A stretch of DNA of 64,000 nt, from NCBI GenBank assembly GCA_041662245.1, contig JBAZSW010000001.1, positions 119,757 through 183,756 on the forward strand, read 5' to 3'. The notes beneath the pieces are model-generated. The model saw only the letters and a program-made list of their open reading frames with translations, was not told the origin of the DNA and searched no databases. Positions 612-22,634 of this stretch are shown one piece after another (within the stretch, counting starts at the first letter, position 1; every line of letters begins with the position of its first letter). The translations under genes were made by a program, and so were the position numbers. This stretch comes from Parcubacteria group bacterium (lineage in GTDB: Bacteria > Patescibacteriota > Minisyncoccia > Moranbacterales > UBA9337).

Positions 612-731
612 TTTATTGTTTGTTATTCTTTTTAGAAAGATTTTTTATAATTATATAATAACAGTTTTTGTTGAATTGATAAAGTCGTGTTATAATTTAT
701 CTAGATATAAATAACTTTTTATTTTTTTGGT

Positions 732-2186
732 ATGGGAAAAAATATGGAAGATTTGCCTGAGTCTTCTCCTCTGGTGGAGAATATTGAAAGAAAAACAAAA
801 ATAAAAGAAAGCATCGGCAAAGATAAAATTAAAGAGGTGGTAGAATCCTTGGACTCGCAAGAAATCGCTTCAAACGAGAAAGAAAAAGAAATAACGCAAA
901 TCTATAAAGCAGATTCTTTTAATGATGAATTGGCAAGAGGACTAGAGGAAGAATTCTTAAATGGAAATGACTTGACTGATGATGAAGTTGCATATAATGG
1001 GAAAAATGAAAATGTTATTGACGTCGAACGGCTTTCTCCTGCAAATAAATATTCAGACGCTACGATTAAAAAAGCAGTCAATGATAAGAAATTTGCCCAA
1101 GACTTAGCAGATCATGAAATAGCAGGGGAAATTGCTGACATAGAGAAAGCCAGTGAAAGAAATAAAAAAGAGTTGAAAGTGGATATTGAAAAATTCAAAA
1201 AAGAATTGCCTACTGTCTTTAATGAGATTAGAAAAAAATTTATTAGTTTTCATAAAAAGTTTTCTGGTTCTGAAGAAGGAAAGCTTTTTACGGATAAATT
1301 GGAAGGGACGATTAATGGTTATGCTCAAAAAATTCATGAGTTTGATGTGATTGATATTTATGATACTAAAACTCTTACAAAGATAAATCAATTGCATCAT
1401 GAAATGGAAATATGGCTTGATAAGAATTGGGATGAACTGTACGAAAGAAAGGTAGGGAGAGGCGCTTTTAAAAAAGAAACTGAAACTGAATCTGTTCTGG
1501 AGGATTTAAATCTAGATGATTTGCATGGAAATGATAGTTTTGCGACTGAAAGGATTAAAAAAGCGGAGCAAAACAAGAAAATTGATAAGATTGAATCAAA
1601 AGATGAGGAAAAAATTAATCAAAAAAACCTTTCTGAGGAAGAGCGGATAGAATTAGTATCATTGATTAGTGAGAAATGGGCAGATGTCGAAAGAGGCTAT
1701 AATGATTTGATGAAAAAGTTTTATGATTTTCGTAAAAGCAATGAAGGCGAAATTAAATATCATAAATTATTATTTAAAAAAACCTTGGATATAAATGAAA
1801 AGAAGGTGACTCTAAAAAAAGTTATTAACGGAAATATTCAAATAAATCAGGAATTATTAAATGATTTAATAGATTTGGACAAGGATATAATTGAATTTAT
1901 AAGTTCAGATTGGGATAGGGAATTAAAAGAATTTAAAGGTGAAATTGAATTTACTCCGGAAGAAAAAGAAATTATAAAAAATGTAGCGGAGGCTTTTGGA
2001 AATTTTATGGATAGTTTAAAAGAAAAAAGTTCATGGGATGAATATGATGCTACGGAAAAAGAAACTGTTTTAAAAATTTTAACCAGTGTAGAGATAAAGA
2101 AAACAATCAAAGAGATGGGAATCGCTGAATATAAAATTAAGCAATTTGCCAATAGTGTTATGGATATTATTTTAACCAAAAAATAA
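732..2186 (+). CDS. Hypothetical Lys/Glu-rich coiled-coil protein (484 aa), first gene of T4SS-like cluster
   Basis: Long ORF with highly charged K/E/D composition and no TM segment. Same strand as, and tightly spaced with, the downstream large protein and the VirB4-like ATPase. Confidence 0.5.
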   Translation: MGKNMEDLPESSPLVENIERKTKIKESIGKDKIKEVVESLDSQEIASNEKEKEITQIYKADSFNDELARGLEEEFLNGNDLTDDEVAYNGKNENVIDVERLSPANKYSDATIKKAVNDKKFAQDLADHEIAGEIADIEKASERNKKELKVDIEKFKKELPTVFNEIRKKFISFHKKFSGSEEGKLFTDKLEGTINGYAQKIHEFDVIDIYDTKTLTKINQLHHEMEIWLDKNWDELYERKVGRGAFKKETETESVLEDLNLDDLHGNDSFATERIKKAEQNKKIDKIESKDEEKINQKNLSEEERIELVSLISEKWADVERGYNDLMKKFYDFRKSNEGEIKYHKLLFKKTLDINEKKVTLKKVINGNIQINQELLNDLIDLDKDIIEFISSDWDRELKEFKGEIEFTPEEKEIIKNVAEAFGNFMDSLKEKSSWDEYDATEKETVLKILTSVEIKKTIKEMGIAEYKIKQFANSVMDIILTKK

Positions 2187-2193
2187 AATTAAA

Positions 2194-5100
2194 ATGGAAA
2201 AAGATAATTTAGATCCAAGAAAAGTAGCGGAAAACTTGGGTGATGAGATTAGAAAAAATTTGAAAAATAAAAACGTTTCAACTGAGGCGGTTTTTGAGGG
2301 TGAGCAGAAAGAAGCTTCAGCGAAAAAAGATCCGATTATGACATCCGAAGATGAATTAAAAACAGGCCTAGATGAAGCACAGACTTCCAATAAAAAACCC
2401 AAGAAAGAAGAACTGACGTCAGAGGAGAAAGAAAAAGTTTATAAGTTGAAGAAAGATTTGGAAGATATTTTTAAAAGAAAAGAATTTGAAAATTATAAAA
2501 AAAAGAATCCGGATAGATTGGCGGAATACATCAGGCAGATAACAAGACAGGCGGAAAATAATATTAAAAAGGAGAAAGAATGGGATGCTTTAGATATCTT
2601 ATTGGATAAAGCTAAAAAAAGTAAGGCAACTACGCTAATCAGAATTTTGGAGGAAATAAAAAATAATAGGGGAACGGAAAAAATAAAAGAAAATTGGACA
2701 TTGGAAGAAATAAACGAAAGATTAAAATCAGCCGGTGCTGAAGATGAAGATATTAAATACTTTTTTACACTAATTAAAAAAGATAGATTAGATTTTCTTA
2801 ATTCAAATGATGAGGATCTGAGATTTAGAATTGGAAAATTAAAAGAAATGAGAGAAAGTGATAAAACAAGGCAAGAAAGTGCTGAAAATCAGGAAGAAAA
2901 AGTCGAAAAAGAGATGTTATCAACTGAAAATAATGACGAGGAAAAAGAAGTGGAAAATAGAAGAGTGTTGAAATATCTAGGAGGAGAAGTAGAAAGGTGT
3001 CGAAAAGAATACGTTAAAAAAGAAGATGAAGTGGGGGTTAAAATTTCTCGACTCAAAAATTTCTTTCGAAATCTTATTTCTATTGATAAAACTTATGAAA
3101 TTGAGAAAGAATTAGAAACTTACAAAGAAGAATATGAGAGAGCTCTGAAAAATCATTTGGAGGCGGTAGTTGATATTTTGGGTATTTCTAGCGAAGAAGA
3201 GCTAAAAAATTTACTTAATTATACTAAATTTGAAGAAAAACTGAATTTAATAAACGCCAAGGAGGATTTAAAATTTGAAAATGATCCTCGTTTGGAAAGT
3301 TTTAAGATACATTTTAAATCATGGGCAGTGGGCGCCTTGGAAGGCTACAAAAATTTGTTAGCCAAACCTCGAGAATTAATTACACAAAAAACTGGTTCAA
3401 AAATAAAAGGATTTGCTGGTGGAATGATCGCAGTGGGAGGAGCGATGGCATTTGCAAGCAATTATATTCCTGGACTAAGAAATGTGACCGTTCCCCTGAG
3501 TGTAGCGATAGCAACCATGGGATTTCAAAAAAGAGCTCAAGAAAAAGTTGAAATTGAAAAAGGGCAGTCTTTGGAAAGAGGGTTGGCAGATTTGCAAACT
3601 AGATTGGCGGGAATGGATGATAATCTAAAAAAAGAAATTCTTAAAAGAGAATTAGGAATGGAAATAAAAGATATTCCCGAAAAAGTTATTCGAGAAACAG
3701 AAGAAAAATATAAAAGATATTTATATTCTTTTGGTAAGGCTGTAGCCGTGAGTACTTTTTTCTATGAAGTAGGACAGTATGTCAGGGGGTATCTTTCTGG
3801 TTCGGAAACGGATCATCTCAATGAATCTATAATGAAAGACAATCTTGTGAAGGCGGGGGTTAAACTTCCTCCAACCCAAGACGAAACTTATCATATTAAT
3901 CGTCATCCAGAGGCCAATACCGCGGGAATAGCTGATGGAAGACCAGCGGGTATTCATGGAATGCAAAATCAAAAAATAATGGATGAGCCAAAAATTCCCG
4001 AAGGAGTAGCGCCTATAAAAGCAGAAACTATTCAAGAAACATTCAAAAAATTTGGAATAAAAGATTTAGATGCGAATCCTAATGAATCTCCAGAAGCTAA
4101 TCCTACCGATGCATCACATCCCGAAATTAAAAGCGACACTAATCCTACAAAAAGTGAAGAATTAGATAGCAAGGAGGGTGGAACGAGCGAGGAAATTAAT
4201 GTTTCAGAAAACAACGAAGATATTTTTAAAAATGAAGCACTAGAAACGCCAGAAATAAAGAGGACAGAATTTTCTGGTATTGAGTTGAATAACTCTAATA
4301 ATGGAGAATTGATAATAAAACAAAAGGATAGTGTTATCGGTACCATTGCCAAATTTTTAGAAAAAAATAGCGACAAATTGACAGAGGGGAAAATGGGTTT
4401 TGATCCAGCTAAATATTCCGGAGCAACCCTAGAAGAAAAAATTCATAGTTGGTCACAGATAAGAGCCAATGCTATCGCTAAAGAATTTGCTCGTGCTAAT
4501 AGTGAATATAATTTAAATAAAGTATCAGATGGTTCAAGCATCGCTTTAAATCTAAATAATTTAGCTGATATAAAAATCGAGCATCTCAATGATCAATATC
4601 ATTTAGGAGGAGAAGCTGTCTCTCAAGAAATTCCGATAAGCGCAACTGATAATGCAGAGAGGTTAATAGAGGTAAAAGAAACTATTAGATTAGAAAATGC
4701 CACTAAGGATGAAATGGAATTAGTTCATAAAATAGGATTAACTCCCAAAGAATATGCGGATTTGAATGACAAATCGGTGATAAATTTTCTTGATTCTAAA
4801 AATTCTGATAATCCCATTGATTCCAGTGCTCAATTAAAAAATATTCTTAAATATTTGATTAAAGAGGGATCAATTAACAATGTAAATAGTAGTGTTTCAG
4901 ACGCGATTAGAAGCTTGGATGAGCATTCCTTGGGAAAAATATTTGATAAGAGCAGTCAAATATTTACCCCCGATTTTTCTTTGCGAGAAGATTTTAATTA
5001 CAGTGAATATGTGGGAGAAGTGGTTAAAAATGAGCTATCAGAAGTGATTCGAGATAAATCTATTTTAGGTTTGGTTTTTAAGGAGATTGGCAGTATTAAA

Positions 5101-5301
5101 GGAAATATAATAAGCAGTGAGCCTACGGGTGGAATTTTTGATTCATTTAAGCAAGTGGCAGAAAAAACGCTTGGAGTGGAAAATATAAGGTCAAGAAACG
5201 ATGACACGGTGGCTAAATATGTGGTAAAATCATTTAAACGAGCCTATGAATTGGGGAAATTGGATGAACTTAAATTGGCACTAAAAAATATCAAAAAATA
5301 A
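2194..5301 (+). CDS. Hypothetical large protein (1035 aa) with central hydrophobic hairpin
   Basis: Starts 8 nt after the previous gene. Charged coiled-coil N-terminal half. Gly/Ala-rich hydrophobic segment GFAGGMIAVGGAMAFASNYIPGLRNVTVPLSVAIATMGF in the middle. No recognisable catalytic motif. Confidence 0.5.
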   Translation: MEKDNLDPRKVAENLGDEIRKNLKNKNVSTEAVFEGEQKEASAKKDPIMTSEDELKTGLDEAQTSNKKPKKEELTSEEKEKVYKLKKDLEDIFKRKEFENYKKKNPDRLAEYIRQITRQAENNIKKEKEWDALDILLDKAKKSKATTLIRILEEIKNNRGTEKIKENWTLEEINERLKSAGAEDEDIKYFFTLIKKDRLDFLNSNDEDLRFRIGKLKEMRESDKTRQESAENQEEKVEKEMLSTENNDEEKEVENRRVLKYLGGEVERCRKEYVKKEDEVGVKISRLKNFFRNLISIDKTYEIEKELETYKEEYERALKNHLEAVVDILGISSEEELKNLLNYTKFEEKLNLINAKEDLKFENDPRLESFKIHFKSWAVGALEGYKNLLAKPRELITQKTGSKIKGFAGGMIAVGGAMAFASNYIPGLRNVTVPLSVAIATMGFQKRAQEKVEIEKGQSLERGLADLQTRLAGMDDNLKKEILKRELGMEIKDIPEKVIRETEEKYKRYLYSFGKAVAVSTFFYEVGQYVRGYLSGSETDHLNESIMKDNLVKAGVKLPPTQDETYHINRHPEANTAGIADGRPAGIHGMQNQKIMDEPKIPEGVAPIKAETIQETFKKFGIKDLDANPNESPEANPTDASHPEIKSDTNPTKSEELDSKEGGTSEEINVSENNEDIFKNEALETPEIKRTEFSGIELNNSNNGELIIKQKDSVIGTIAKFLEKNSDKLTEGKMGFDPAKYSGATLEEKIHSWSQIRANAIAKEFARANSEYNLNKVSDGSSIALNLNNLADIKIEHLNDQYHLGGEAVSQEIPISATDNAERLIEVKETIRLENATKDEMELVHKIGLTPKEYADLNDKSVINFLDSKNSDNPIDSSAQLKNILKYLIKEGSINNVNSSVSDAIRSLDEHSLGKIFDKSSQIFTPDFSLREDFNYSEYVGEVVKNELSEVIRDKSILGLVFKEIGSIKGNIISSEPTGGIFDSFKQVAEKTLGVENIRSRNDDTVAKYVVKSFKRAYELGKLDELKLALKNIKK

Positions 5302-5321
5302 TCATTAATAAAATTAATTAT

Positions 5322-5624
5322 ATGGCTACTAAAAATCAAGATAAAATTAAAAAAGATATAATGTTGGATTTGGGAATGGATAAATTGCCAGAAGATAAAC
5401 AAGATGAGATTTTGGCTAAGATTGGAGAAATAATTTTAAAAAAAATATTTATTGAGACTATTGATAGACTGGATGAGGGTGATGCCAACGAATTTAAAAA
5501 AATGCTTGAAGATGGCAGTGATTCAGATAGTATCGAAAAATTTTTAAGCGCTAGAATTGAGAATTATGATGTGATAATAGAAAAAATTGTAGCAGAAGTA
5601 AAATCAGATATAAAAAATGGTTAA
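5322..5624 (+). CDS. Small acidic hypothetical protein (100 aa)
   Basis: ORF in operon context between the large proteins and the ATPase. No motif recognised. Confidence 0.4.
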   Translation: MATKNQDKIKKDIMLDLGMDKLPEDKQDEILAKIGEIILKKIFIETIDRLDEGDANEFKKMLEDGSDSDSIEKFLSARIENYDVIIEKIVAEVKSDIKNG

Positions 5625-5644
5625 TAATTTTAAATAATAAAAAT

Positions 5645-6106
5645 ATGCCTGATGAAAAAACAATAGATTTGAATTTGGAGCCCGTTAGTGATGATGATTT
5701 TGATTTATCTAAAAAATTCGGTCATATTGAAAAAAATCAAATAGGGTCAGTGGGCAACAAAAAAGAAGGGATTCCCTCAGTAACAGAGAAGGAAAAAGCT
5801 CAGGAAATTTCTCCAGCAGAAAAAGAATCTGCGTATAGTAGGATTCTTTCCAAAGTTTCTCAAAAGTCAGTTAGTCCAAGGAGTGATGATATCAAAAGTG
5901 ATGCGGAAGCAGTTTCTAAAAAAATGGATGCAGATAGTCAAATTCAACATTTAGTGGATTTGGCTACAACCAAAGGAGCAATACATGCAATAAAAGTAGC
6001 TAAGCATATGGAAGACAACTATGTTTTGGATATGCTTCATGATAAAATGATCTCAGAGGAATTGCATAAAGTATTGGTAGAAAAAAATCTTATTTCTGAG
6101 GAATAA
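5645..6106 (+). CDS. Hypothetical protein (153 aa)
   Basis: ORF in the same operon. No motif recognised. Confidence 0.4.
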   Translation: MPDEKTIDLNLEPVSDDDFDLSKKFGHIEKNQIGSVGNKKEGIPSVTEKEKAQEISPAEKESAYSRILSKVSQKSVSPRSDDIKSDAEAVSKKMDADSQIQHLVDLATTKGAIHAIKVAKHMEDNYVLDMLHDKMISEELHKVLVEKNLISEE

Positions 6107-6147
6107 ATTTGAGAGTAAAAAATAAAAAAATAAACTAAAAAATAAAA

Positions 6148-8634
6148 ATGTTTGATCTTAATTCTATTTTGTTATTTCTAGTAGTTGCTTTAGGCAGTAT
6201 GTCTGCTATTAGTGGCTTGTTTTTGGTGGTGCGTAGTTTCTTTCGCTTTCGTATTCAAATAAATTATTCTATAAACATGGATTTGGAGGTTGTCAGGGTG
6301 ACAAAAACAAATAAGAAAGATGGTGCTTCTATGGGGGGTGGACAAAACGGAGAAGTCTGGAAAGAAGAAGTGGGAGCAATGGAACAGTTGCTGACCACTT
6401 TATCAAAGACTAGAGTAAATAAATCATTTTTAAATAAAATTTTTTATGACGTTCCTTGTATTTCTCTAGAAATAGCTAAACCTTCCAATAGTGAAGAAAT
6501 ATTTTTTTATGTTGCTATTCCTAGAAAATTAAGAGAAACTATTGAAAAACAAATTCACAGTTATTTTCCTAACGCTTCTATAGAAAAAATTTCGGATTAT
6601 ACTATTTTTTCTCCGGGGAGCTTTACTGCCTCTGCCGTTTTGGAATTGAAAAATAGACATGCTCTTCCGGTAAAAACGTATGTCTATATGAATGGTGATC
6701 CTCTTAATGAAATTTCTAATTCATTGAGTAAATTTAAGGCAGATGAAGAGGGAGCGTCAATTCAGTTAGTGATTACCCCTGCCAAAAGAGGTTGGCAGAC
6801 ATTGGGAAAAACAATTGCGCATAGAATGCAACAAGGAAAAAGACTTAAAGATGTGCATAGTGATTCATTGATTTCAAAAATGGGAAGCGAAATAGGAAAA
6901 GGCGCAGGTGATGTTTTAAGTACTTTGATGGCCAGTAATAAGCCAAATAATGACTTGGAAAAGAAAAATATTATTCAATTGACACCAGAAGAGCAGGAGC
7001 TTATTAAATCCATAGAGAGTAAGTCTAACAAAGCTGGTTTTAAAGTTAACATAAGACTGTTGGCTTCAGCAGATTCTCAAGGTAGAGCGGATGAAATATT
7101 GGCTCAAATAGAAAATTCTTTTTCTCAATTTGAAAATCATGGAGTTAATTATTTTAAAATTAAGAAAAGGACAAAAAATAAAGATAATTCTTTCGATTAT
7201 ATTTTTAGAAATTTTAATGATGATAATGCTATAATTCTTAATACTGAAGAGATAGCTAGTATTTTTCATTTTCCAATTTCCACTACAGAGACTCCTAAAA
7301 TTAAATGGCTTAAAGCCGGGGCGGCTCCACCGCCAATAAATATTCCTTCAGAGGGAATATTATTGGGATATAATGATTATCGAGGAGAAAAAACAGATAT
7401 AAGACTATCTGATAGCGATAGACGAAGACATCTTTATACAATTGGACAAACTGGAGTTGGAAAATCACATTTTCTTCAAGCCATGGCTAAGCAGGATGTG
7501 ATGAATGGTAAAGGAATTTGTTTTATTGATCCCCATGGGGATGCAATCGAAGATATATTAGCTGCAGTTCCGAAAGAAAGGGCGGAAGACGTAATTATTT
7601 TTAATCCAGCGGATAGTGAAAGACCCCTAGGATTAAATATGCTTGAATACGACAGACCTGAAGAGAAAAGTTTTGTGATTAATGAAATGATCAGTATTTT
7701 TGATAAATTATACGATCTAAAGCAAACAGGAGGTCCAATGTTTGAACAATATGCGAGAAACGCAATGCTTCTTGTAATGGAGCATCCTGAATCAGGCTCA
7801 ACCCTAATGGAAATTCCCAAGGTTTTAGCAGATGAAGAATTCAGAAAAATGAAATTATCTCATTGTAATAATCCGGTAGTGAGAGATTTTTGGATAAAAG
7901 AAGCAGAAAAAGCAGGAGGAGAGGCAGCTTTGGCCAATATGGTACCTTATATCACCTCTAAACTTACCACCTTTATTTCCAATGATTTGATGCGACCAAT
8001 AATTGCTCAGCAAAAAAGCGCTTTAAACTTTAGAAGTATCATGGATGAAGGAAAAATATTACTTATCAATCTTTCCAAGGGAAGAATTGGAGAAATCAAT
8101 AGTCATCTTTTGGGAATGGTGATGGTTGGCAAGATTTTAATGGCAGCTCTTTCTCGAGTAGATATGCCAGAAAATGAGCGCAAAGATTTTTATTTATATA
8201 TCGATGAGTTTCAAAATGTAACGACTGATTCAATCTCTCAAATTCTTTCAGAAGCTCGAAAATATAGATTGAATTTAATTATTGCCCATCAGTTTATCGG
8301 CCAGTTGAGCGAGGAAATATCTAAAGCGGTTTTTGGTAATGTTGGATCATTATGTGCTTTTCGAGTAGGCCCAGAAGACGCGGAATTTTTAGAAAAACAA
8401 TTTGAACCGATTTTTACTGCTAGTGATTTGATTAATGTAAATAACTATAGCGGTTTTGCTAAATTATTGATTAATAATGACACGACTAAGCCATTTAATA
8501 TAAAAACTTATCCACCTAGAGAAGGTAATAAGGAAATTTCCAAATATCTTAAAGAGATGTCTCGTTTAAAATATGGTCGAGATGCTAATATTGTTAATCG
8601 AGAGATAATGGAAAGAACTAAATTTAGAACTTAA
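6148..8634 (+). CDS. VirB4/TraE/TrbE-like conjugative/type IV secretion ATPase (AAA_10/HerA-DUF87-like), N-terminal TM segments (VirB3-VirB4 fusion-like)
   Basis: N-terminal TM segment LFLVVALGSMSAISGLFLVV. Walker A HLYTIGQTGVGKSH followed by the FIDPHGD motif characteristic of HerA/VirB4-family ATPases. Walker B-like LYIDEFQNV. The gene is immediately followed by a VirB2/TrbC-like pilin gene. Confidence 0.7.
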   Translation: MFDLNSILLFLVVALGSMSAISGLFLVVRSFFRFRIQINYSINMDLEVVRVTKTNKKDGASMGGGQNGEVWKEEVGAMEQLLTTLSKTRVNKSFLNKIFYDVPCISLEIAKPSNSEEIFFYVAIPRKLRETIEKQIHSYFPNASIEKISDYTIFSPGSFTASAVLELKNRHALPVKTYVYMNGDPLNEISNSLSKFKADEEGASIQLVITPAKRGWQTLGKTIAHRMQQGKRLKDVHSDSLISKMGSEIGKGAGDVLSTLMASNKPNNDLEKKNIIQLTPEEQELIKSIESKSNKAGFKVNIRLLASADSQGRADEILAQIENSFSQFENHGVNYFKIKKRTKNKDNSFDYIFRNFNDDNAIILNTEEIASIFHFPISTTETPKIKWLKAGAAPPPINIPSEGILLGYNDYRGEKTDIRLSDSDRRRHLYTIGQTGVGKSHFLQAMAKQDVMNGKGICFIDPHGDAIEDILAAVPKERAEDVIIFNPADSERPLGLNMLEYDRPEEKSFVINEMISIFDKLYDLKQTGGPMFEQYARNAMLLVMEHPESGSTLMEIPKVLADEEFRKMKLSHCNNPVVRDFWIKEAEKAGGEAALANMVPYITSKLTTFISNDLMRPIIAQQKSALNFRSIMDEGKILLINLSKGRIGEINSHLLGMVMVGKILMAALSRVDMPENERKDFYLYIDEFQNVTTDSISQILSEARKYRLNLIIAHQFIGQLSEEISKAVFGNVGSLCAFRVGPEDAEFLEKQFEPIFTASDLINVNNYSGFAKLLINNDTTKPFNIKTYPPREGNKEISKYLKEMSRLKYGRDANIVNREIMERTKFRT

Positions 8635-8653
8635 TAATTTATCTATAAAAAAT

Positions 8654-9067
8654 ATGAAAATTAAAATTTTAATCGGAGGTATTTTTTTTATTAGTTTAAT
8701 TTTGGTGGCTAATTTATCTCTGGCGGCTTATACTCCGTTGGAAGAAATTCCCGGAACCACAGGAACGTCTGCTATTAATACTTTTCCTACGTATGTTAAT
8801 GCTGTTTATAAATTTGCGATTTGGTCAGTGGGAATTGCCGCTTTACTGATGATTTCCATTGGTGGTTTTATGTACTTTACAGCAGCGGGAAATACTTCTA
8901 AGATGGAAGGTGGAAAGAAAATTGTCACTGATGCCTTGTTTGGATTGATAGCTGTGATGGTAGCTTGGGTAGTATTAAACACCATTAACCCCAATTTAAC
9001 TAATATTTCCCTAAAAAGTGTTACTGACCTTAGTTCATCTTCTTCACAACTAAAATCATCACACTAA
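8654..9067 (+). CDS. VirB2/TrbC-like pilin (T4SS pilin-like, two TM helices)
   Basis: 137 aa. N-terminal signal/TM segment IGGIFFISLILVANLSLAAYTP. Second hydrophobic helix AIWSVGIAALLMISIGGFMYF, then LFGLIAVMVAWVVL. This size and topology are typical of TrbC/VirB2 pilins and of the pilin genes next to VirB4 in CPR genomes. Confidence 0.6.
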   Translation: MKIKILIGGIFFISLILVANLSLAAYTPLEEIPGTTGTSAINTFPTYVNAVYKFAIWSVGIAALLMISIGGFMYFTAAGNTSKMEGGKKIVTDALFGLIAVMVAWVVLNTINPNLTNISLKSVTDLSSSSSQLKSSH

Positions 9068-9077
9068 AATAAGATTT

Positions 9078-10085
9078 ATGTTTCAAATAATTTGCATTGG
9101 TTCATCTTCAAAAGATATTTTTTTTCCTACTGATGAGGGTTTGATTTTTGATACTCCTGAGGATATCACAGCCCAAAAAAAAATAGCTTTTGAATTAGGA
9201 GCCAAATATCAGATAGCAGAAATTTTTGAAGCTCCGGGAGGATGCGCAGCCAATGTAGCTCAAGGCTTAGCGAGATTGGGGATAAAAACTGCTTGTTATA
9301 CTAAGATTGGTAAAGATGAAATTGGGAGATGGATTAAAAAAGAGTTAAAAAGAGAAAAAGTTAATACCAGATTGTTACAAATAGATAAAAAATGCAAAAG
9401 CGATTTGTCATCTATAATTGTAGATAAAAAAACTGGGGAGCATGTAATATTCTTTAATCGAGAATCTAACACTAAATTGGAGATAATTCCCAAGAAGATA
9501 AAAAATACTCAGAGAATATTTGTCAGCGCCTTAAATGGTGAGTGGGAAAAGCACATAGATGCTGTTATGGAAGTAGCTGAAAAAAATAATATTAAAATAA
9601 TATTTAACCCTGGACAAAGAAATATCAAGGATAATCCAAAAAAAGTTTTAGAGATAATAAAAAAATCAGAAGTAGTCGTTTTAAATAAAGATGAGGCGAT
9701 TGAAATTTTGTTAGGGAACAATGTAGAAATAGAGAATGAGAAATTAAATGATGAAATTTTTCTGTTAAAAAACATAGCTAACTTCAGCCATGGGGTAATC
9801 GCTTTGACCGATGGGGAAAGGGGTTGTTGGGTGATCTATAATAACGAAGTATTTTTTTCTAAGGTAATTGTAGATAGTCCTGTGGATACTTTGGGTGCGG
9901 GTGATTCTTTTTCGAGCGGGTTTTTGGCAGGCTATATTGCAGGAAAGAACATAGAAGAGTCTTTAAAAATGGGAATGGCCAATAGTGCTAATGTAATTTT
10001 ATATTATGGTGCCAAGCAAGGATTACTGGCCAAGAATAATGTAGCTGATTTTACACAAAAAATTAAAGTGGAAAAATTAAAATAA
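9078..10085 (+). CDS. PfkB-family carbohydrate/nucleoside kinase (ribokinase-like)
   Basis: N-terminal GG motif region APGGCAANVAQGLARLG and C-terminal anion-hole motif DTLGAGDSFSSGFLAGY, both characteristic of the PfkB family. Confidence 0.75.
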   Translation: MFQIICIGSSSKDIFFPTDEGLIFDTPEDITAQKKIAFELGAKYQIAEIFEAPGGCAANVAQGLARLGIKTACYTKIGKDEIGRWIKKELKREKVNTRLLQIDKKCKSDLSSIIVDKKTGEHVIFFNRESNTKLEIIPKKIKNTQRIFVSALNGEWEKHIDAVMEVAEKNNIKIIFNPGQRNIKDNPKKVLEIIKKSEVVVLNKDEAIEILLGNNVEIENEKLNDEIFLLKNIANFSHGVIALTDGERGCWVIYNNEVFFSKVIVDSPVDTLGAGDSFSSGFLAGYIAGKNIEESLKMGMANSANVILYYGAKQGLLAKNNVADFTQKIKVEKLK

Positions 10086-10094
10086 AATATTTTT

Positions 10095-11363
10095 ATGGGA
10101 TTTGTTTCAAAAATTTTATCTATTCAAAAAAAACTCGATTTAGTTCTGGCTTTAGATATTGGTACGGAAGTTATTAAAGCACTTATTTTTAAAGTGGATA
10201 GTGCTAATAACAAGGGAATAGTTGTGGGTGTAGGAAAAGTTAGGCAAGAATTAGGCAATATGCAAAGTGGGGCAGTTTCTGATATCGCGGGGGTAGTAAA
10301 AGTCGCCAGAGAAGCAATAGATATCGCCAAAGGAAAAGCAGGAATAAAAAATGTTAAGTACGCTATTGTCGGAATAGCTGGAGAGCTGGTTAAAGGAACA
10401 ACCACCACTGTCCATTATGAGAGAGCGAATTCAGATTTAAAAATAGGATTACCTGAATTGAATAATATTATTCAAAAAGTGCAACAAAAAGCTTATGAGA
10501 GAATTGGAGAACAAATTGCTTGGGAAACTGGACAGAGTAATATTGATATAAAATTAATTAACGCAGCAGTTTCGGATGTAAGGATTGATGGTTATCGAAT
10601 TAATAATCCATTGGGATTTCAAGGGCATAACGTTTCTATTAGTGTTTTTAATGCCTATGCTCCAACTATTCATTTAGGAGCTATTGAATCGATTGTTAAT
10701 GAGCTGGGGATAGATTTGGCTAGTATCGCAGCAGAACCTTATGCAGTGGCAAAATTAGTTGATTTTGAGGGAGATTTAAATTTTAATTCCATATTTATTG
10801 ATGTGGGAGGAGGAACGACTGATATTGCGGTGGTTAGAAATGGCGGGTTAGAAGGAACTAAAATGTTTGCTTTAGGGGGGAGAGCTTTTACCAAGAGATT
10901 GTCTCAAGAAGTAGGCGTGGATTTCGAAAGAGCAGAGAGATTAAAAATAAATTATTCTTTGGGAAAATTAAGCAAAATAGATACTGAAAAAGTGGAACGA
11001 ATATTTGAAGATGATTGCCAGATTTGGTTAAGTGGAATAGAATTAGCTCTATCGGAGTTTTCTCAAAGTGATCTTTTGCCCAATAAAATTTTAATGTGTG
11101 GAGGAGGATCTGGCTTGCCGGGGATAAAAAAATCACTTTTATCTAAAGAATGGCTAAATAAATTGGCTTTTGTTAACCCTCCTAAAATATCATTTTTGCG
11201 CCCTCAAGATGCGGCCAATATCATTGATAAAACGGGTGAATTGACTAGTACTCAGGATGTTACGCCGATGGGATTAGCGGGATTAGTTTTGGAATTATCC
11301 CAGGAAGAAAAAGTTTTGGCAGGAATTTTGAAAAGAGCTATGAATAAAGTAGACTACAAATAA
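10095..11363 (+). CDS. FtsA/PilM-family actin-like ATPase
   Basis: Actin-fold phosphate motifs LALDIGTEVIKALIF and FIDVGGGTTDIAVV. The 422-aa length fits FtsA. The downstream gene is not ftsZ, so FtsA versus PilM cannot be resolved. Confidence 0.55.
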   Translation: MGFVSKILSIQKKLDLVLALDIGTEVIKALIFKVDSANNKGIVVGVGKVRQELGNMQSGAVSDIAGVVKVAREAIDIAKGKAGIKNVKYAIVGIAGELVKGTTTTVHYERANSDLKIGLPELNNIIQKVQQKAYERIGEQIAWETGQSNIDIKLINAAVSDVRIDGYRINNPLGFQGHNVSISVFNAYAPTIHLGAIESIVNELGIDLASIAAEPYAVAKLVDFEGDLNFNSIFIDVGGGTTDIAVVRNGGLEGTKMFALGGRAFTKRLSQEVGVDFERAERLKINYSLGKLSKIDTEKVERIFEDDCQIWLSGIELALSEFSQSDLLPNKILMCGGGSGLPGIKKSLLSKEWLNKLAFVNPPKISFLRPQDAANIIDKTGELTSTQDVTPMGLAGLVLELSQEEKVLAGILKRAMNKVDYK

Positions 11364-11380
11364 TTTGTAAAAACATTAAT

Positions 11381-13168
11381 ATGCATCAAACTTTTTACAT
11401 TGATGTTGATGAAGAAGTAAATTCTGTCATTGGCAGAATTAGAAAATCAAATGCTAAATACAACATTTTAGTTGTTGCGCAAGGGGCTTTATTGATGCAA
11501 AGTTCAGTTAGTTTAAAATTGATAAAAAAAGAATCAGATATTTTAGATAAAAAAGTAATGATTGTGACCAAGGATGATAGAGCGGCTATTATTGCAAAAA
11601 AGATAGGTTTCCCAGTTAGAAGAAGTTTAGATGAAGTAAAGGAAATAAGCGCTAATCCTGTTTTAAAAAAACCAGACATCCAAATTGGTCGGGAAGCGGT
11701 TAATGAAAACAAAGTTAATGCAAAACCAGATTCAGATGAAATTTCAAATAAAAGAAATAGGTTGACTAATTTGGGTGCAGATAGTTTTATTGCTACTAAT
11801 GGAATAATTAAAAAAAATAATCTGGTTGAAAATAATAGAAGTTCTTTTTTGAAAAATAATTTGGATGATAGTAATAGAGAAAAAGTTGTTGTTAAGAATA
11901 ATAATTTATTGGAATCTCAAAATGATGGTTTTAAAGATCTTTTTACTGAATTTCCTGAACCAATCGTTACAGAAAAAAAACAAAAAACGTCAAATAAAAA
12001 TATGCTGAAATTTCTTTGGTTTTTTGTTGCAATTATCATGTTGCTTATTTTAGGTATTGCTGCTTACTTTTTTTTACCTAGCGCGGAAATTTCAGTTTTC
12101 CCTTTAAAAAGAGATGAGAATATAAGTCTGAAATTAAATATTTCAGAAGATGATAATGTCGTTGACCCTCAAGGAAATACGATTAATTTAAGAGGAAAAA
12201 TAATTGAAGATGAAGGCATCTTGTCTTTAACGTTTGATGCTACGGGACAAAAAGGAGGATCAGACCAAAAAGCTAAAGGAACAATTACCATTTATAATGA
12301 ATTTAGTGAAACCAGTCAAGTCTTGGTGGCGACGACGCGTTTACTGAGTGATAATGATAAACTTTTCAGATTGTTAAATACGGTGACTGTTCCAGGAATG
12401 ACAATCGTAGACGGTAAAGTGGAACCCGGAAAAATAGAAGCTGAGATTATAGCGGATGAATCAGGAACTGATTTTAATATTAAAGAAGCAACCCTTGCTA
12501 TTCCTGGTTTTAAGGGAAGTGCTAAATATGATAAATTTTATGCTAAATTAACTCAGGAAACAAAAGGTGGGGGAAGCAGTGGTGGAGATTTAAAAATGGT
12601 TTCTCGAAGTGATATTGAGAGCGCTAAATTTAAAACGGAAAATCAGTTAAAGAATCAATTGAAGGATAGTATTAAAAATAAGTCAGGCGAAGAGAATATT
12701 TTATTAGATAACGCTTTAATTTACGAGGTAACAGATTTTTCAGTTTTTCCAGAAGAAAGTTCAGTGACCGAAAGTTTTGAATATCAGGTTAAAATAAAAG
12801 TTAAATCTATTGTATTTTCTTCTGGAGATTTGGATGAGAAGATAACCACTTTTATTAATAGCAGTGTTATTAAAAAAGAGGTCCCTCTAAAATTAATTTC
12901 TTTTAGTAAAAATTATGGCAATGCCGATATAAATTTTGCCAAAGGAACAATAAATATGGAAATTAACGTTAATGCAAAATTACGTTCTCAAATTGATGCA
13001 GACAAGATTTCTAACAGTTTAGCTGGAAAAAGTAGGGATGAAATGAGCGGAATAATAAGCAATTATCCTCAAATAAGTAAAGCTGAGGCAATTATTTCTC
13101 CTAGTTTTATTTCAAACAGTTTCCCTAAATATCCTTCTAAAATAAAGGTTATAATTAGCGATAATTAA
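11381..13168 (+). CDS. Hypothetical membrane protein (595 aa): cytoplasmic N-domain, single TM, large extracytoplasmic domain
   Basis: TM helix FLWFFVAIIMLLILGIAAYFFL at roughly residue 210. No catalytic motif recognised. Confidence 0.45.
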   Translation: MHQTFYIDVDEEVNSVIGRIRKSNAKYNILVVAQGALLMQSSVSLKLIKKESDILDKKVMIVTKDDRAAIIAKKIGFPVRRSLDEVKEISANPVLKKPDIQIGREAVNENKVNAKPDSDEISNKRNRLTNLGADSFIATNGIIKKNNLVENNRSSFLKNNLDDSNREKVVVKNNNLLESQNDGFKDLFTEFPEPIVTEKKQKTSNKNMLKFLWFFVAIIMLLILGIAAYFFLPSAEISVFPLKRDENISLKLNISEDDNVVDPQGNTINLRGKIIEDEGILSLTFDATGQKGGSDQKAKGTITIYNEFSETSQVLVATTRLLSDNDKLFRLLNTVTVPGMTIVDGKVEPGKIEAEIIADESGTDFNIKEATLAIPGFKGSAKYDKFYAKLTQETKGGGSSGGDLKMVSRSDIESAKFKTENQLKNQLKDSIKNKSGEENILLDNALIYEVTDFSVFPEESSVTESFEYQVKIKVKSIVFSSGDLDEKITTFINSSVIKKEVPLKLISFSKNYGNADINFAKGTINMEINVNAKLRSQIDADKISNSLAGKSRDEMSGIISNYPQISKAEAIISPSFISNSFPKYPSKIKVIISDN

Positions 13169-19373: not shown

Positions 19374-20045
19374 ATGAAAAAAAGAAATAAATCAAAAACA
19401 AATATGAAAAAAAAATCATTAATCACGCATAGTCAACATTTTGTTCTTACAAATGATAAAATAATTCGTACCGCTCTTAAAGAAAAATTAGAGGAGTCTT
19501 ATTTTGGAATAAAAAATACTAAGATTATTGAAGAATTAGGCATTACTCATGGGGAGGCTCGTATTGACATAGCTGTTGTTAACGGTGTTATACATGGCTA
19601 TGAACTAAAGAGTGACAGGGACACATTAAAACGGTTGCCTGGTCAGATTGAAATATATAACACAGTTCTTGATAAGGTAACACTAGTGGTGGGAATGAAT
19701 CATTTGCATGAAGCGATGAAAATCGTTCCAGATTGGTGGGGTATAACAATTGCAAAAATAGTAAATTCAGATAGCGTAGTTTCTTTTTTTAATATTCGAG
19801 AACCAGAAGAAAATAAAAATCAAAACAGCGCTGCTGTTGCTGCACTGTTATGGAGAGAAGAAGCTCTCAAAATATTGGAGAATATAGGACAAGCCAAGGG
19901 GATGCAATCAAAAAGTAGAAAGGCTATATATGAAAAATTGGCTGATGTTTTAGAAAAAAAATCTTTAAATAAAATCGTTCGGGAACAGCTACGTACTAGG
20001 GTAAATTGGCGATCTGATTTGCAGTGCATACCAAGTGGTGGTTAA
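19374..20045 (+). CDS. PD-(D/E)xK-fold nuclease-like protein (sce7726-family-like)
   Basis: Motif GEARIDIAVVNGVIHGYELKSDRD (D ... E-x-K). Convergent with, and overlapping, a 372-aa partner gene. The family assignment comes from memory of family descriptions, not a search. The true start may be the second Met (MKKKSL, ~19404). Confidence 0.4.
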   Translation: MKKRNKSKTNMKKKSLITHSQHFVLTNDKIIRTALKEKLEESYFGIKNTKIIEELGITHGEARIDIAVVNGVIHGYELKSDRDTLKRLPGQIEIYNTVLDKVTLVVGMNHLHEAMKIVPDWWGITIAKIVNSDSVVSFFNIREPEENKNQNSAAVAALLWREEALKILENIGQAKGMQSKSRKAIYEKLADVLEKKSLNKIVREQLRTRVNWRSDLQCIPSGG

Positions 20046-21114
20046 TACCTGCTGTTAGCCATGTTTCAGTGCTTCCAGTGCCTTTAATTTCTGGGTTTAG
20101 TTGGTATTTTTCAAAATGTTTCCCCTTATCAAATATATACTTGTCGCCAATGCTAAAATTTTCTCCCATAAAAAGATCTACATCCTCTGATAGTAGTTTT
20201 GCATTGGCTAAATAGAGTTCATACTTTTGTTTTTTACCTTTCATGATTAGCCAATTACTTTCCAGTGTATATTTTATACTAGTGGTGGGAGGAAAGAATT
20301 GAAAAGATTCTTTGTATATTGGATGCTGAATTGTGTAATCTGCAAATATCGGATTTCTTTGCAGGGTTTTTGCGCTAACATAACCAAGCCAACCTATCCA
20401 ATCATGACGAGGAAGATAATTTTCTTCATCAAGTTTGCACTTGGATAAATCTAGGGGAAAAGCGCCACCTGCAAAAATAAATGATCTCCATTTTGATAGG
20501 TTGTGAATTTGCTGACTCTTAGTTATATATGTTTGATATTTGCCATCATTTTCTTCGACACTTTTAATATCTACTAATAGGTCAATATTCTTTTCTTCTA
20601 GATTGTAAGAAGTTAAAAAATCATTAATTTTTTTATTCAGCACATCTATGTCAGAGAAATCAGAACAAACTATTCGCAAGCACAAACCGTTGTTGTGTTT
20701 TTTTGCTAATAATCCGACGATATTTTTAATCTGAAGATCATCGTTAATGTTTATCACTGGAATCAAAACCATCCCGTTGGCACCTCCTTTTGTTAGTATT
20801 TTTTCAAAGCATGTTATTTTCAATGACGTGGTGTATAGGAGACTAAAATCAATAAATATTGGATCTTTTCCCCAAAACTTCAAAATTTCTTCTGAAATTT
20901 CAGGTATTTTTTCACTAAACGTTGCTATGACTTTATTAAATTTTTCCTCTTGAGTTTGTTCCGATGCTTCTTTTGTGCTTGATTTTGGCTTTGGCATTAC
21001 GAACTGAATTAGTGGAGTAATATATCTTTTACTTTCATCATTTAAAGCCTCTAGGGCTTTTTGCTCAGCACGTTTCCATTTTAATATTGGCACATAATGT
21101 TTTGCTTCAAACAT
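19996..21114 (-). CDS. Hypothetical 372-aa protein, possible Beta-protein (PF14350)/sce7725-family-like partner of the PD-(D/E)xK protein
   Basis: N-terminus MFEAKHYVPILKWKRAEQKALEAL resembles the YVPILK.K.GE..AL start I recall for Beta_protein/sce7725 families. Its 3' end overlaps the convergent gene at 19374-20045 by about 50 nt. This is an inference only. Confidence 0.3.
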   Translation of the reverse strand: MFEAKHYVPILKWKRAEQKALEALNDESKRYITPLIQFVMPKPKSSTKEASEQTQEEKFNKVIATFSEKIPEISEEILKFWGKDPIFIDFSLLYTTSLKITCFEKILTKGGANGMVLIPVININDDLQIKNIVGLLAKKHNNGLCLRIVCSDFSDIDVLNKKINDFLTSYNLEEKNIDLLVDIKSVEENDGKYQTYITKSQQIHNLSKWRSFIFAGGAFPLDLSKCKLDEENYLPRHDWIGWLGYVSAKTLQRNPIFADYTIQHPIYKESFQFFPPTTSIKYTLESNWLIMKGKKQKYELYLANAKLLSEDVDLFMGENFSIGDKYIFDKGKHFEKYQLNPEIKGTGSTETWLTAGINHHLVCTANQIANLP

Positions 21115-21115
21115 A

Positions 21116-22321: not shown

Positions 22322-22336
22322 AGTATTTTCTGGTTA

Positions 22337-22615
22337 TTACCAGCTCATATATTCATTATGTGTGCCGGCATTCATTATTAGGACCGCTTCGTATGGGTAG
22401 TTGATCTTAGTTTTTAGTCTGTATTTAACTCCTTTTAAATTAAATATCACAGTATTGTCTGCTAAAAAACTCGCACTAGCATAGCGCTGCTTGATATCTT
22501 GTGGCGTGCACCACCTTGCCATTGCTACTTCGGCTTCCCAAGCGTCTACCTGTGAACGGACATCAGCGTGCTTTTGCTTGAAAGTATGTAATTTTTCTTT
22601 ACCAAGGATATTCAT
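22337..22615 (-). CDS. higB: HigB-family type II toxin (RelE/ParE superfamily)
   Basis: MNILGKEKLHTFKQKHADVRSQVDAWEAEVAMARWCTPQDIKQRYASASFLADNTVIFNLKGVKYRLKTKINY matches the HigB pattern (KHPDAR..L.AWY.EV..A.W..P.D.K..Y.SAS...DN.VVFNI.GNKYRL). The ORF-track start 22642 is 9 codons upstream. The internal Met at 22615 fits HigB homolog length. Confidence 0.75.
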   Translation of the reverse strand: MNILGKEKLHTFKQKHADVRSQVDAWEAEVAMARWCTPQDIKQRYASASFLADNTVIFNLKGVKYRLKTKINYPYEAVLIMNAGTHNEYMSW

Positions 22616-22634
22616 TATTATTGACTGTATAATT

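What the first reader, a model, noticed from the sequence alone, without database searches (positions are those of the whole stretch)
732..9067. Type IV secretion/conjugation-like module: giant charged proteins, VirB3/4-like ATPase, VirB2-like pilin
Five co-directional genes with almost no intergenic space encode two very large K/E-rich proteins (484 and 1035 aa; the latter has a membrane hairpin), two small acidic proteins, a HerA/VirB4-type ATPase with N-terminal TM, and a two-TM pilin. No relaxase, coupling protein or VirB6/8/9/10 is recognisable. This fits a minimal CPR-type T4SS-like apparatus, possibly for episymbiotic contact or DNA uptake. The large charged proteins could be novel structural or effector components.
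Basis: partly seen in the sequence, partly recalled or inferred. Interest (0 to 1): 0.5.

Follow-up and report, generated by a model that had tools for sequence, protein, structure and literature searches.

The report
Orphan hybrid secretion ATPase locus
This is not a complete secretion machine: it is the conserved chromosomal home, in an ultra-small (CPR/Patescibacteria) bacterium, of an unusual membrane ATPase that joins a VirB4-type front half to a coupling-protein-type motor, together with a small partner protein, fast-evolving giant proteins and, in this lineage only, a pilin gene.

Summary
The ORFs are real, but there are six co-directional genes, not five: 484, 1035, 100, 153, 828 and 137 aa. 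The 137-aa protein is a VirB2-type T4SS pilin (PF18895 above threshold; signal peptide plus two TM helices).

The 828-aa ATPase is not a canonical VirB4.
- Its motor matches only coupling-protein (T4CP) profiles: TrwB_AAD_bind, TraG-D_C, and PDB TrwB/DotL.
- A syntenic 73%-identical orthologue (KKQ22401.1) is listed in a 2025 survey as an orphan "T4CP", in a genome with a separate VirB3-TrsD-VirB4 cluster.
- So it is a hybrid.

Across 80 related loci the conserved unit is a new 130-165-aa partner family followed by the ATPase. Moranbacteria add a DUF5663 protein and giant, domain-less, fast-evolving proteins that share only a positively charged C-terminal helix. The pilin is adjacent in only about 13 close relatives. 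The pair often lies among cell-division genes.

Best guess, inferred and not shown: a coupling-type receptor/motor that handles the giant proteins. This is a new variant of a known kind, of moderate interest.

The parts
631..659 (+). Best promoter-like site (TTTAGA-17-TATAAT) in the divergent intergenic region upstream of the first gene
   Evidence: It scores 10 of 12. Promoter-like sites overall are at background frequency, so this is only a candidate.
732..2186 (+). 484-aa K/E-rich acidic protein with no TM and no known domain; lineage-specific extra 'giant'
   Evidence: Homologues (35-42% identity) occur only in the 4 closest loci, L004, L005, L007 and L038. No Pfam, NCBIfam, PHROG or PADLOC hit.
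2194..5301 (+). 1035-aa giant, fast-evolving protein without a signal peptide; member of a mosaic family found upstream of the ATPase in Moranbacteria
   Evidence: Only 8 homologues among 5.8 billion proteins, at 32-35% identity, while the neighbouring ATPase is 82-87% identical. Single-linkage family of 35 members. No Pfam domain in 35 such giants, apart from isolated hits.
3397..3528 (+). G/A-rich moderately hydrophobic segment (residues 402-445) of the 1035-aa protein; possible membrane hairpin
   Evidence: The maximum hydropathy is 1.31 here and 1.5-1.9 in homologues. It is not a confident TM.
5164..5298 (+). C-terminal positively charged helix motif of the giant protein (..VAKYVVKSFKRAYELGKLDELKLALKNIKK)
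   Evidence: The tail of 30 aa has net charge +6 in a protein with net charge -26, higher than any other 30-aa window of that protein. A related [WYF]-hydrophobic-x-[RKSG]-hydrophobic tail aligns in about 25 of 29 family members. In 55 scanned large upstream proteins, which include unrelated housekeeping genes from non-Moranbacteria loci, the motif occurs in the last 45 aa of 26, against 0.08 expected per 45 aa. The window's own tail (K-Y-V-V-K-S-F) aligns with the motif, but the strict regular expression did not match it.
5322..5624 (+). 100-aa acidic protein, DUF5663 family
   Evidence: The window copy scores 21.1 bits, just below the cut-off of 23.7. 18 of 20 positional orthologues match DUF5663, best E 6.9e-10. 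In L027 it is fused to a giant.
5645..6106 (+). 153-aa acidic partner protein from a new family without a Pfam model: disordered charged N-part plus a conserved C-terminal helical domain
   Evidence: BLAST finds a homologue within a few genes upstream of the ATPase in about 55 of 80 loci, directly adjacent in most, down to 43% ATPase identity. Alignment A3. 106 database relatives, all 'hypothetical' and none with Pfam.
5936..6055 (+). Conserved C-terminal motif of the partner protein (LLDLAxxKGVxxAVKVAxxxxDxYxLDxFHD; invariant Y126, D129, H132, D133)
6148..8634 (+). 828-aa membrane-anchored P-loop ATPase: TM helix + VirB4-N-domain-like DUF8128 + T4CP-like motor
   Evidence: Pfam, NCBIfam and PHROG results. 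Precomputed PF26449 (DUF8128) + PF10412. AF2 model with pLDDT 86.4. Fold searches. Orthologue KKQ22401.1 is listed as an orphan T4CP.
6148..6240 (+). N-terminal transmembrane helix (residues 1-31)
   Evidence: Hydropathy. The model has one long helix over residues 4-42.
6277..7347 (+). DUF8128 domain (residues ~44-400) with a VirB4 N-terminal-domain-like fold
7357..8631 (+). RecA-like motor domain with an all-alpha insertion (residues ~506-633), T4CP-type
7444..7467 (+). Walker A (GQTGVGKS, residues 433-440)
   Evidence: G433, G436 and K439 are invariant in 61-64 homologues; G438 is invariant in A1 and nearly invariant in A2.
8191..8208 (+). Walker B (YLYIDE, D686-E687)
   Evidence: Invariant D686 and E687. 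They align to the TrwB Walker B region.
8654..9067 (+). 137-aa VirB2-type T4SS pilin (signal peptide plus two TM helices); adjacent to the ATPase only in this sub-clade
   Evidence: PF18895, E 1.3e-7, 32.1 bits against 26.6. Topology. Orthologues lie next to the ATPase in 13 loci only, even by jackhmmer.

Best explanation
Identity (well supported). The locus is the chromosomal home of the 'orphan coupling-protein-like' ATPase that is widespread in Patescibacteria. The ATPase is a single-pass membrane protein. Its cytoplasmic part joins a VirB4-N-domain-like module (DUF8128) to a T4CP-type (TrwB/VirD4/DotL-like) motor that carries an all-alpha insertion. It comes with a family-specific small acidic partner (the 153-aa protein). 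In Moranbacteria it also comes with a DUF5663 protein and one or two giant, domain-less, very fast-evolving proteins that share only a positively charged C-terminal helix. In this sub-clade a VirB2-type pilin gene lies directly downstream. The genome's real VirB3-TrsD-VirB4 secretion cluster is elsewhere; this is shown in a relative and inferred for this genome.

Mechanism (inferred). The ATPase acts like a coupling protein. It forms a membrane-anchored ring and uses ATP to receive and unfold or translocate the giant proteins encoded beside it. It recognises their C-terminal helix, with the two small acidic proteins acting as adaptors or chaperones. The VirB4-like N-domain would dock the motor onto the T4SS inner-membrane platform, so that the giants are exported to the cell surface or into the host bacterium. 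Their rapid divergence fits such a destination. Whether the motor feeds the T4SS channel or works on its own is unresolved.
For: Identity:
- T4CP profiles match above threshold and no VirB4 profile matches.
- The profile against PDB sequences hits only TrwB and DotL.
- The syntenic orthologue P0035 is KKQ22401.1. Table S3 of PMC12102498 lists it as T4CP, not near virB4, in the same genome as VirB3-TrsD-VirB4 (KKQ22608-22610).

Link between the ATPase and its neighbours:
- A g153 homologue lies upstream of the ATPase, mostly directly adjacent, in about 55 of 80 loci.
- Giants sit upstream in Moranbacteria, and also in a different context (map-giant-ATPase: L061, L074, L057).
- In L027 a giant is fused to DUF5663.

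Substrate-like traits of the giants:
- No signal peptide and no known domain.
- 30-35% identity where the ATPase is 84-87%, FtsA 91-94% and the pilin 64-69%.
- Tails are net positive in 33 of 41 (mean +2.0 against -0.8).
- A shared C-terminal motif aligns in about 25 of 29 family members.

The small partners are acidic (pI 4.6 and 5.2), as T4SS adaptors and chaperones typically are. This last comparison rests on my own knowledge of IcmS/IcmW and VirE1.
Against: - No experiment or interaction prediction links the ATPase to the giants; everything rests on gene neighbourhood and sequence traits.
- The published survey found T4CP homologues in 2,918 genomes but VirB4 in only 2,417. Some genomes therefore keep T4CP-like ATPases without a T4SS, although that count mixes several T4CP families.
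- The t4cp homologue of S. epibionticum was reported as not essential while the T4SS genes were. It is unknown whether that homologue is a DUF8128 protein.
- Outside Moranbacteria many loci have no giant next to the ATPase.
- Full-length homologues occur in Bacillus and Geobacillus phages, which have no T4SS.
- The recurrent division-gene neighbourhood points to another role.
Confidence: 0.4

Rival explanations
1. The ATPase is a VirB3/VirB4-type assembly ATPase which, together with the adjacent VirB2-like pilin, forms a minimal self-contained T4SS-like pilus apparatus. The ATPase would extract pilin from the membrane and polymerise it.
For: - An N-terminal TM helix.
- A genuine PF18895 pilin 19 bp downstream, conserved in 13 close loci.
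Against: - No VirB4, VirB3 or AAA_10 profile matches.
- The pilin is missing next to the ATPase in about 65 of 80 loci, including most Moranbacteria.
- A relative with the same locus has a separate VirB3-TrsD-VirB4 cluster.
- No VirB6-like channel protein was found among the window ORFs scanned.
- The tight spacing continues into PfkB and FtsA, so it does not define a unit.
Confidence: 0.15
2. A housekeeping, divisome-associated translocase. The partner-ATPase pair would act at the septum, as FtsK/SpoIIIE does, moving DNA or envelope proteins during division. The T4SS resemblance would reflect shared ancestry only.
For: The pair lies among division and cell-wall genes in three different arrangements:
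- ftsQ-...-ATPase-pilin-pfkB-ftsA in Moranbacteria.
- mraZ-mraW-ftsL?-ftsI-mur ligase-partner-ATPase-..-murA in L060, L071, L073 and L075.
- ftsA-partner-ATPase in L070 and L081.

Other support:
- Very strong conservation: 5,854 clusters at 50% identity with E <= 1e-30, and many invariant residues.
- Stable chromosomal context and uniform GC content.
Against: - No FtsK_SpoIIIE Pfam hit for the window protein.
- One TM helix, not the multi-pass FtsK anchor.
- Other lineages place the gene after secY-adk-map or next to dnaX, so the division-gene linkage is not universal.
- This model does not explain the adjacent hypervariable giants.
Confidence: 0.2
3. A decayed mobile element: a remnant of a conjugative element or prophage that left behind a coupling protein and a pilin gene.
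For: - T4CPs are typical of conjugative elements.
- Full-length homologues occur in Bacillus and Geobacillus phages (phrog_5156, E 6e-90; phage G gp156, TP-84, SP-10 and CP-51).
Against: - No integrase, relaxase, repeats or tRNA at the borders.
- GC content of 0.32-0.34, like the rest of the window.
- The same flanking housekeeping genes appear across many species.
- ATPase identity tracks taxonomy and the protein is highly constrained.
Confidence: 0.03

Closest known systems
Orphan 'T4CP' homologues of Patescibacteria (Quinonero-Coronel et al. 2025, Microb Genom, PMC12102498)
   Same: It is the same protein family. The 73%-identical syntenic orthologue KKQ22401.1 is in their Table S3 as T4CP (t4cp1 profile, 93.6% coverage, not near virB4). 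They report 5,713 such homologues in 2,918 genomes, mostly far from virB4, and suggest exaptation.
   Different: The passages I read describe neither the VirB4-like N-domain, nor the conserved 153-aa partner, nor the giant variable neighbours, nor the division-gene context. The pilin orthologue next to KKQ22401.1 is not in their list for that genome.
Type IV coupling proteins TrwB (R388), VirD4/Cagbeta, DotL
   Same: - Walker A/B RecA-like motor with an all-alpha insertion.
- Membrane-anchored at the N-terminus.
   Different: - One TM helix followed by a 360-residue VirB4-like domain, where a T4CP has a short two-helix anchor.
- Far below the NCBIfam T4CP cut-offs (41.7 bits against 366).
- No relaxase or T4SS genes nearby.
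VirB4 (TrwK of R388; split TrsD+VirB4 in monoderm and CPR systems)
   Same: - Two-domain plan: an N-domain plus an ATPase C-domain.
- Full-length co-linear Foldseek match, E 3e-15.
   Different: - No VirB4 sequence profile matches.
- About 10% identity.
- Relatives carry a separate bona fide TrsD-VirB4 pair.
- No adjacent VirB3, VirB6 or VirB8.
Dot/Icm type IV coupling complex (DotL with small acidic adaptors IcmS/IcmW/LvgA)
   Different: - The 100-aa and 153-aa proteins show no detectable homology to IcmS, IcmW or LvgA.
- No evidence that the giants are secreted.
PHROG 5156 / Bacillus phage G gp156, Geobacillus phage TP-84 ATP06113.1
   Same: Full-length relatives that include the DUF8128 part: phrog_5156 E 5.9e-90 over profile positions 64-808 of 824; tblastn gives 22-24% identity over 85-88% of the query.
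   Different: - They are phage-encoded, of unknown function, and lie in early or hypothetical gene regions.
- No 153-aa partner is annotated upstream.

Membership tests
VirB4 (T4SS assembly ATPase) | Matches VirB4 sequence profiles (PF03135 CagE_TrbE_VirB, PF12846 AAA_10, PF19044; CONJScan virb4) | tested here: not met
   None appears among the Pfam or NCBIfam hits at E <= 0.1. The family profile against PDB sequences finds no VirB4 at E <= 1, although TrwK and 4ag5 are in the PDB. The orthologue is listed as T4CP, while another protein in that genome is the VirB4.
VirB4 (T4SS assembly ATPase) | Two-domain architecture: VirB4-type N-terminal domain plus RecA-like C-terminal ATPase | tested here: met
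VirB4 (T4SS assembly ATPase) | Encoded beside VirB3, TrsD, VirB6 or VirB8-type membrane partners | tested here: not met
   No such family was found in the six genes or in the other window ORFs scanned, which included all the larger ones. A relative has VirB3-TrsD-VirB4 at another locus.
Type IV coupling protein (VirD4/TrwB/TraG/TraD) | Matches T4CP sequence profiles above curated thresholds | tested here: inconclusive
   - PF10412 TrwB_AAD_bind scores 34.6 bits against a cut-off of 20.5.
- PF12696 TraG-D_C scores 22.0 bits against 22.
- PF02534 T4SS-DNA_transf gives no hit.
- The NCBIfam T4CP models score far below their cut-offs (41.7 against 366; 29 against 250).
Type IV coupling protein (VirD4/TrwB/TraG/TraD) | Motor fold with an all-alpha domain, closest to solved T4CPs | tested here: met
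Type IV coupling protein (VirD4/TrwB/TraG/TraD) | Short N-terminal two-helix membrane anchor leading directly into the nucleotide-binding domain | tested here: not met
   One hydrophobic helix (residues 1-31), followed by a folded 360-residue DUF8128 domain before the P-loop at residue 433.
Type IV coupling protein (VirD4/TrwB/TraG/TraD) | Genetic association with a relaxase or a T4SS gene cluster | tested here: not met
   No relaxase or T4SS channel genes in the window ORFs scanned. The orthologue is flagged 'VirB4 proximity: No'.
VirB2/TrbC-type T4SS pilin (PF18895 T4SS_pilin) | Profile match above the gathering threshold | tested here: met
   E 1.3e-7, 32.1 bits against 26.6, covering profile positions 4-71 of 71. 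A weak hit to the NCBIfam Mbov_0395 pilin-like model (17.7 against 40).
VirB2/TrbC-type T4SS pilin (PF18895 T4SS_pilin) | Signal peptide followed by two hydrophobic helices joined by a short basic loop | tested here: met
   Hydropathy segments at 1-29, 49-79 and 89-113. The sequence shows ..LSLAA/YTP.. and the loop TAAGNTSKMEGGKK. No dedicated signal-peptide predictor was available.
VirB2/TrbC-type T4SS pilin (PF18895 T4SS_pilin) | Polymerises into a pilus through a T4SS | not testable with these tools
   This needs microscopy or biochemistry.
Complete CPR-type (MPF_FATA-derived) T4SS | VirB4 plus TrsD, VirB3 and VirB6-type components in one neighbourhood | tested here: not met
   Only the pilin is present here.
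DUF5663 (PF18908) | Profile match above the gathering threshold | tested here: inconclusive
   The window copy scores 21.1 bits against 23.7. 18 of 20 positional orthologues match, best E 6.9e-10, so family membership is very likely.
FtsK/SpoIIIE DNA translocase | FtsK_SpoIIIE motor profile, multi-pass anchor, closest fold to FtsK | tested here: not met

The most novel reading that the evidence does not exclude
The DUF8128 ATPase, its 153-aa partner and DUF5663 form a previously unrecognised export route that is widespread in CPR. In this reading a VirB4/T4CP hybrid motor recognises a C-terminal helix on giant, hypervariable, domain-less proteins and delivers them to the cell surface or into the host bacterium. 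That would define a third functional lineage of T4SS-superfamily ATPases with its own substrates. Phage-encoded relatives may use the same motor for another translocation task.
Probability: 0.2. Interest if true: 0.8.

Novelty: new variant of a known kind. Interest (0 to 1): 0.5.

Why it matters
T4SS genes are among the few machines known to be essential for the epibiotic life of Patescibacteria. What they transport is unknown, and no coupling protein or substrate has been tied to them. The 'orphan T4CP' is present in nearly every CPR genome. This work shows four things about it:
- It has a VirB4-type docking domain.
- It has a dedicated conserved partner.
- In one large order it has hypervariable giant neighbours that carry a shared C-terminal tag.
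- It often lies among cell-division genes.

If the link holds, it names candidate substrates and a candidate recognition signal, so the question of what CPR secretion systems move becomes directly testable. If instead the division-gene linkage is the true clue, it points to an unrecognised divisome component in these minimal cells.

Tried and rejected
- PADLOC defence models: only a superfamily-level hit of the motor to mad8 (E 2e-13) and weak HerA hits. I do not treat this as membership of a defence system.
- PHROGs, NCBIfam and Pfam on the 484-, 1035- and 153-aa proteins: nothing significant.
- Pfam on 35 giant neighbours: only isolated Big_13, fn3 and DUF5663 hits.
- Direct BLASTP of the window giants against the 1273-aa protein at the same position in L001: no similarity. 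The family link emerges only through intermediates and the C-terminal motif.
- C-terminal extensions of fused ATPases (P0173 and others): no Pfam domain and no similarity to the upstream giants.
- Promoter and terminator scans: at background level and not informative for operon limits.
- Literature search for DUF8128: no paper found.
- Search for CPR FtsK and divisome literature: nothing relevant.
- I could not inspect the rest of the window's own genome for its VirB4 cluster. That point rests on a relative.

Full report
**Observation**

The + strand between 732 and 9067 holds six back-to-back ORFs: 732-2186 (484 aa), 2194-5301 (1035 aa), 5322-5624 (100 aa), 5645-6106 (153 aa), 6148-8634 (828 aa) and 8654-9067 (137 aa). 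Gaps are 7-41 bp. Equally short gaps continue through PfkB (9078-10085), FtsA (10095-11363) and a 595-aa membrane protein (11381-13168), followed by DnaG and RpoD. The tight packing therefore belongs to this small, 32% GC genome and not to a module.

A divergent minus-strand PMT_2-type glycosyltransferase lies upstream. The composition claims hold:
- The two large proteins are K/E-rich and acidic.
- The two small proteins are acidic (pI 4.6 and 5.2).
- The ATPase has one N-terminal hydrophobic helix.
- The 137-aa protein has a signal-like N-terminus plus two hydrophobic helices.

The 'membrane hairpin' of the 1035-aa protein is only a moderately hydrophobic G/A-rich stretch (maximum hydropathy 1.31). 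The matching stretch in homologues is more hydrophobic.

**The pilin**

The 137-aa protein matches PF18895 (T4SS_pilin) above the curated threshold (32.1 against 26.6 bits). It has the VirB2 topology.

**The ATPase by sequence**

Pfam gives TrwB_AAD_bind (34.6 bits), DUF87 and TraG-D_C. NCBIfam gives only weak TraD/VirD4-like hits. No VirB4, VirB3 or AAA_10 family appears. A profile of 64 homologues searched against all PDB sequences finds TrwB (5e-8) and DotL (2.6e-5) but no VirB4. Database relatives carry precomputed PF26449 (DUF8128) + PF10412 and are named 'type IV secretion system DNA-binding domain-containing protein'.

The 73%-identical, fully syntenic orthologue P0035 is KKQ22401.1. 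Table S3 of Quinonero-Coronel et al. 2025 (PMC12102498) lists that accession as 'T4CP, t4cp1, VirB4 proximity: No'. The same genome has a separate VirB3-TrsD-VirB4 cluster, KKQ22608-22610. That paper reports 5,713 such T4CP homologues in 2,918 CPR genomes, only 148 of them near virB4, and raises the possibility of exaptation. Pfam scans of the other window ORFs, covering all the larger ones, found no T4SS ATPase or channel protein.

**The ATPase by structure**

The protein is thus a hybrid: one TM helix, a VirB4-N-domain-like DUF8128, and a T4CP-type motor with an all-alpha insertion (residues 506-633). Walker A (G433-K439) and Walker B (D686, E687) are invariant or nearly so. The family is very large, with 5,854 clusters at 50% identity scoring E <= 1e-30. 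It includes full-length relatives in Bacillus and Geobacillus phages (phrog_5156 E 6e-90; phage G gp156, TP-84, SP-10 and CP-51).

**Synteny**

I compared 80 loci from GTDB species genomes, with ATPase identity of 43-87%. I called ORFs and labelled them with BLAST and phmmer.
- The most constant neighbour is the 153-aa family. BLAST finds it upstream of the ATPase, directly adjacent in most cases, in about 55 loci.
- It has a disordered charged N-part and a conserved C-terminal helical motif, LLDLAxxKGVxxAVKVAxxxxDxYxLDxFHD, with invariant Y126, D129, H132 and D133.
- It has 106 database relatives. All are 'hypothetical' and none has a Pfam model.
- The 100-aa protein is DUF5663: 18 of 20 orthologues match.
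- It occurs mainly in Moranbacteria, where one or two giant proteins (580-1650 aa) precede it.
- The pilin, PfkB and FtsA follow the ATPase only in the window's own sub-clade. Even jackhmmer finds the pilin next to the ATPase in just 13 loci.

**The giant proteins**

The 1035-aa protein has only eight relatives among 5.8 billion proteins, at 32-35% identity. In the closest loci the giants are 28-35% identical, while the ATPase is 84-87%, FtsA 91-94% and the pilin 64-69%. They form a mosaic family held together by single linkage (35 members). They have no Pfam domains and no signal peptide.

What they share is the extreme C-terminus:
- The last 30 residues are net positive in 33 of 41 proteins (mean +2.0, against -0.8 for windows of these acidic proteins).
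- A [WYF]-hydrophobic-x-[RKSG]-hydrophobic helix aligns in about 25 of 29 family members.
- It occurs in the last 45 residues of 26 of 55 scanned large upstream proteins, against 0.08 expected per 45 residues.
- That scan included unrelated housekeeping genes from non-Moranbacteria loci, so 26 of 55 understates the frequency within the family.
- The window's own tail (K-Y-V-V-K-S-F) aligns with the motif, but the strict regular expression did not match it.

In L027 a giant is fused to DUF5663. In another context (secY-adk-map) giants again sit just upstream of the ATPase, in L057, L061 and L074.

**Genomic context**

The partner-ATPase pair lies among division and cell-wall genes in three different arrangements:
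- dnaX-ftsQ-[two PMT_2]-giant-DUF5663-partner-ATPase(-pilin-pfkB-ftsA).
- mraZ-mraW-ftsL?-ftsI-mur ligase-partner-ATPase-...-murA.
- ybeY-ftsA-partner-ATPase.

Nothing marks a mobile element. There is no integrase, relaxase or bordering tRNA, and the GC content is uniform.

**Interpretation**

*Shown.* The locus is not a self-contained T4SS. The ATPase is the CPR 'orphan T4CP'. It has a VirB4-like N-domain. It has a conserved partner and, in Moranbacteria, fast-evolving giant neighbours with a shared C-terminal tag. The pilin adjacency is specific to one sub-clade.

*Inferred (about 0.4).* The ATPase works as a coupling-type receptor and motor for the giants. The small acidic proteins would act as adaptors, and the motor may dock through its VirB4-like domain onto the T4SS platform encoded elsewhere.

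*Rivals.*
- A VirB4-like pilin-assembly role (0.15).
- A divisome-associated, FtsK-like role suggested by the division-gene linkage (0.2).
- A decayed mobile element (0.03).

*Points against the preferred model.* There is no direct evidence. T4CP homologues occur in more genomes than VirB4 does. A t4cp homologue was reported as non-essential in S. epibionticum. Phage homologues exist. Many loci have no giants.

**Novelty and score**

CPR T4SSs, their VirB2-like pilins and the orphan T4CPs are already published. To my knowledge, and within the literature I could search, the following appear new:
- The hybrid domain architecture.
- The partner family.
- The C-terminal tag on the hypervariable giants.
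- The division-gene linkage.

I rate this a new variant of a known kind, with interest 0.5.

Noticed in passing
L060, L071, L073, L075 (about 5100-12350); L070, L081; L001 643-15242; window 6148-11363: The partner-ATPase pair sits among division and cell-wall genes in three different gene orders: ftsQ...ftsA in Moranbacteria; mraZ-mraW-ftsL?-ftsI-mur ligase-pair-...-murA; and ftsA-pair. Another lineage places a longer ATPase (918-941 aa) after secY-adk-map.
   Followed up: partly
L027 4839-7358: An 840-aa giant protein upstream of the ATPase carries a DUF5663 domain. It is a natural fusion of the 'giant' and the 100-aa protein family.
   Followed up: partly
Proteins P0173, P0182, P0187, P0189-P0191, P0195, P0199 (representative search): In some lineages the ATPase is fused to a 750-1180-aa acidic, domain-less C-terminal extension. 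The extension ends in a conserved motif, KLxxGEVFVDExGNVIIGE. It is unrelated to the upstream giants.
   Followed up: partly
Phage records JN638751.1 91003-93159 (phage G gp156) and KY565347.3 30542-32806 (TP-84; L084): Full-length homologues of the DUF8128-T4CP ATPase (22-24% identity, about 85% coverage; PHROG 5156) occur in Bacillus and Geobacillus phages. They lie among hypothetical early genes and their function is unknown.
   Followed up: partly
window 19996-22642 (-) and 24548-25603 (+): A Beta_protein (PF14350) gene lies next to a 401-aa Peptidase_M78/ImmA-IrrE protein, and a protein with three HTH domains lies nearby. This may be a conflict or mobile islet. The GC skew dips here because the coding strand switches.
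   Followed up: no
window 25728-29720 (-) and 29775-34931 (-): Two further giant ORFs: one of 1330 aa with no Pfam hit, and one of 1718 aa with Big_9, DUF4962 and dockerin-like matches. They are probably cell-surface proteins and are unrelated to the giants of the finding.
   Followed up: no
window 11381-13168 (+): A 595-aa single-TM protein with no Pfam hit directly follows FtsA. It is conserved in that position in the close relatives (32-63% identity) and may be an unrecognised division protein.
   Followed up: no
L002 12527-12940 (GCA_000992055.1): The pilin orthologue next to KKQ22401.1 (53% identical to the window pilin) has no precomputed Pfam hit. It is also missing from the VirB2 list for that genome in the 2025 survey, so pilin counts there are probably underestimates.
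   Followed up: partly
window 55451-55522 (-): The only tRNA in the 64-kb window is tRNA-Gln(CTG). It is not associated with the locus.
   Followed up: no
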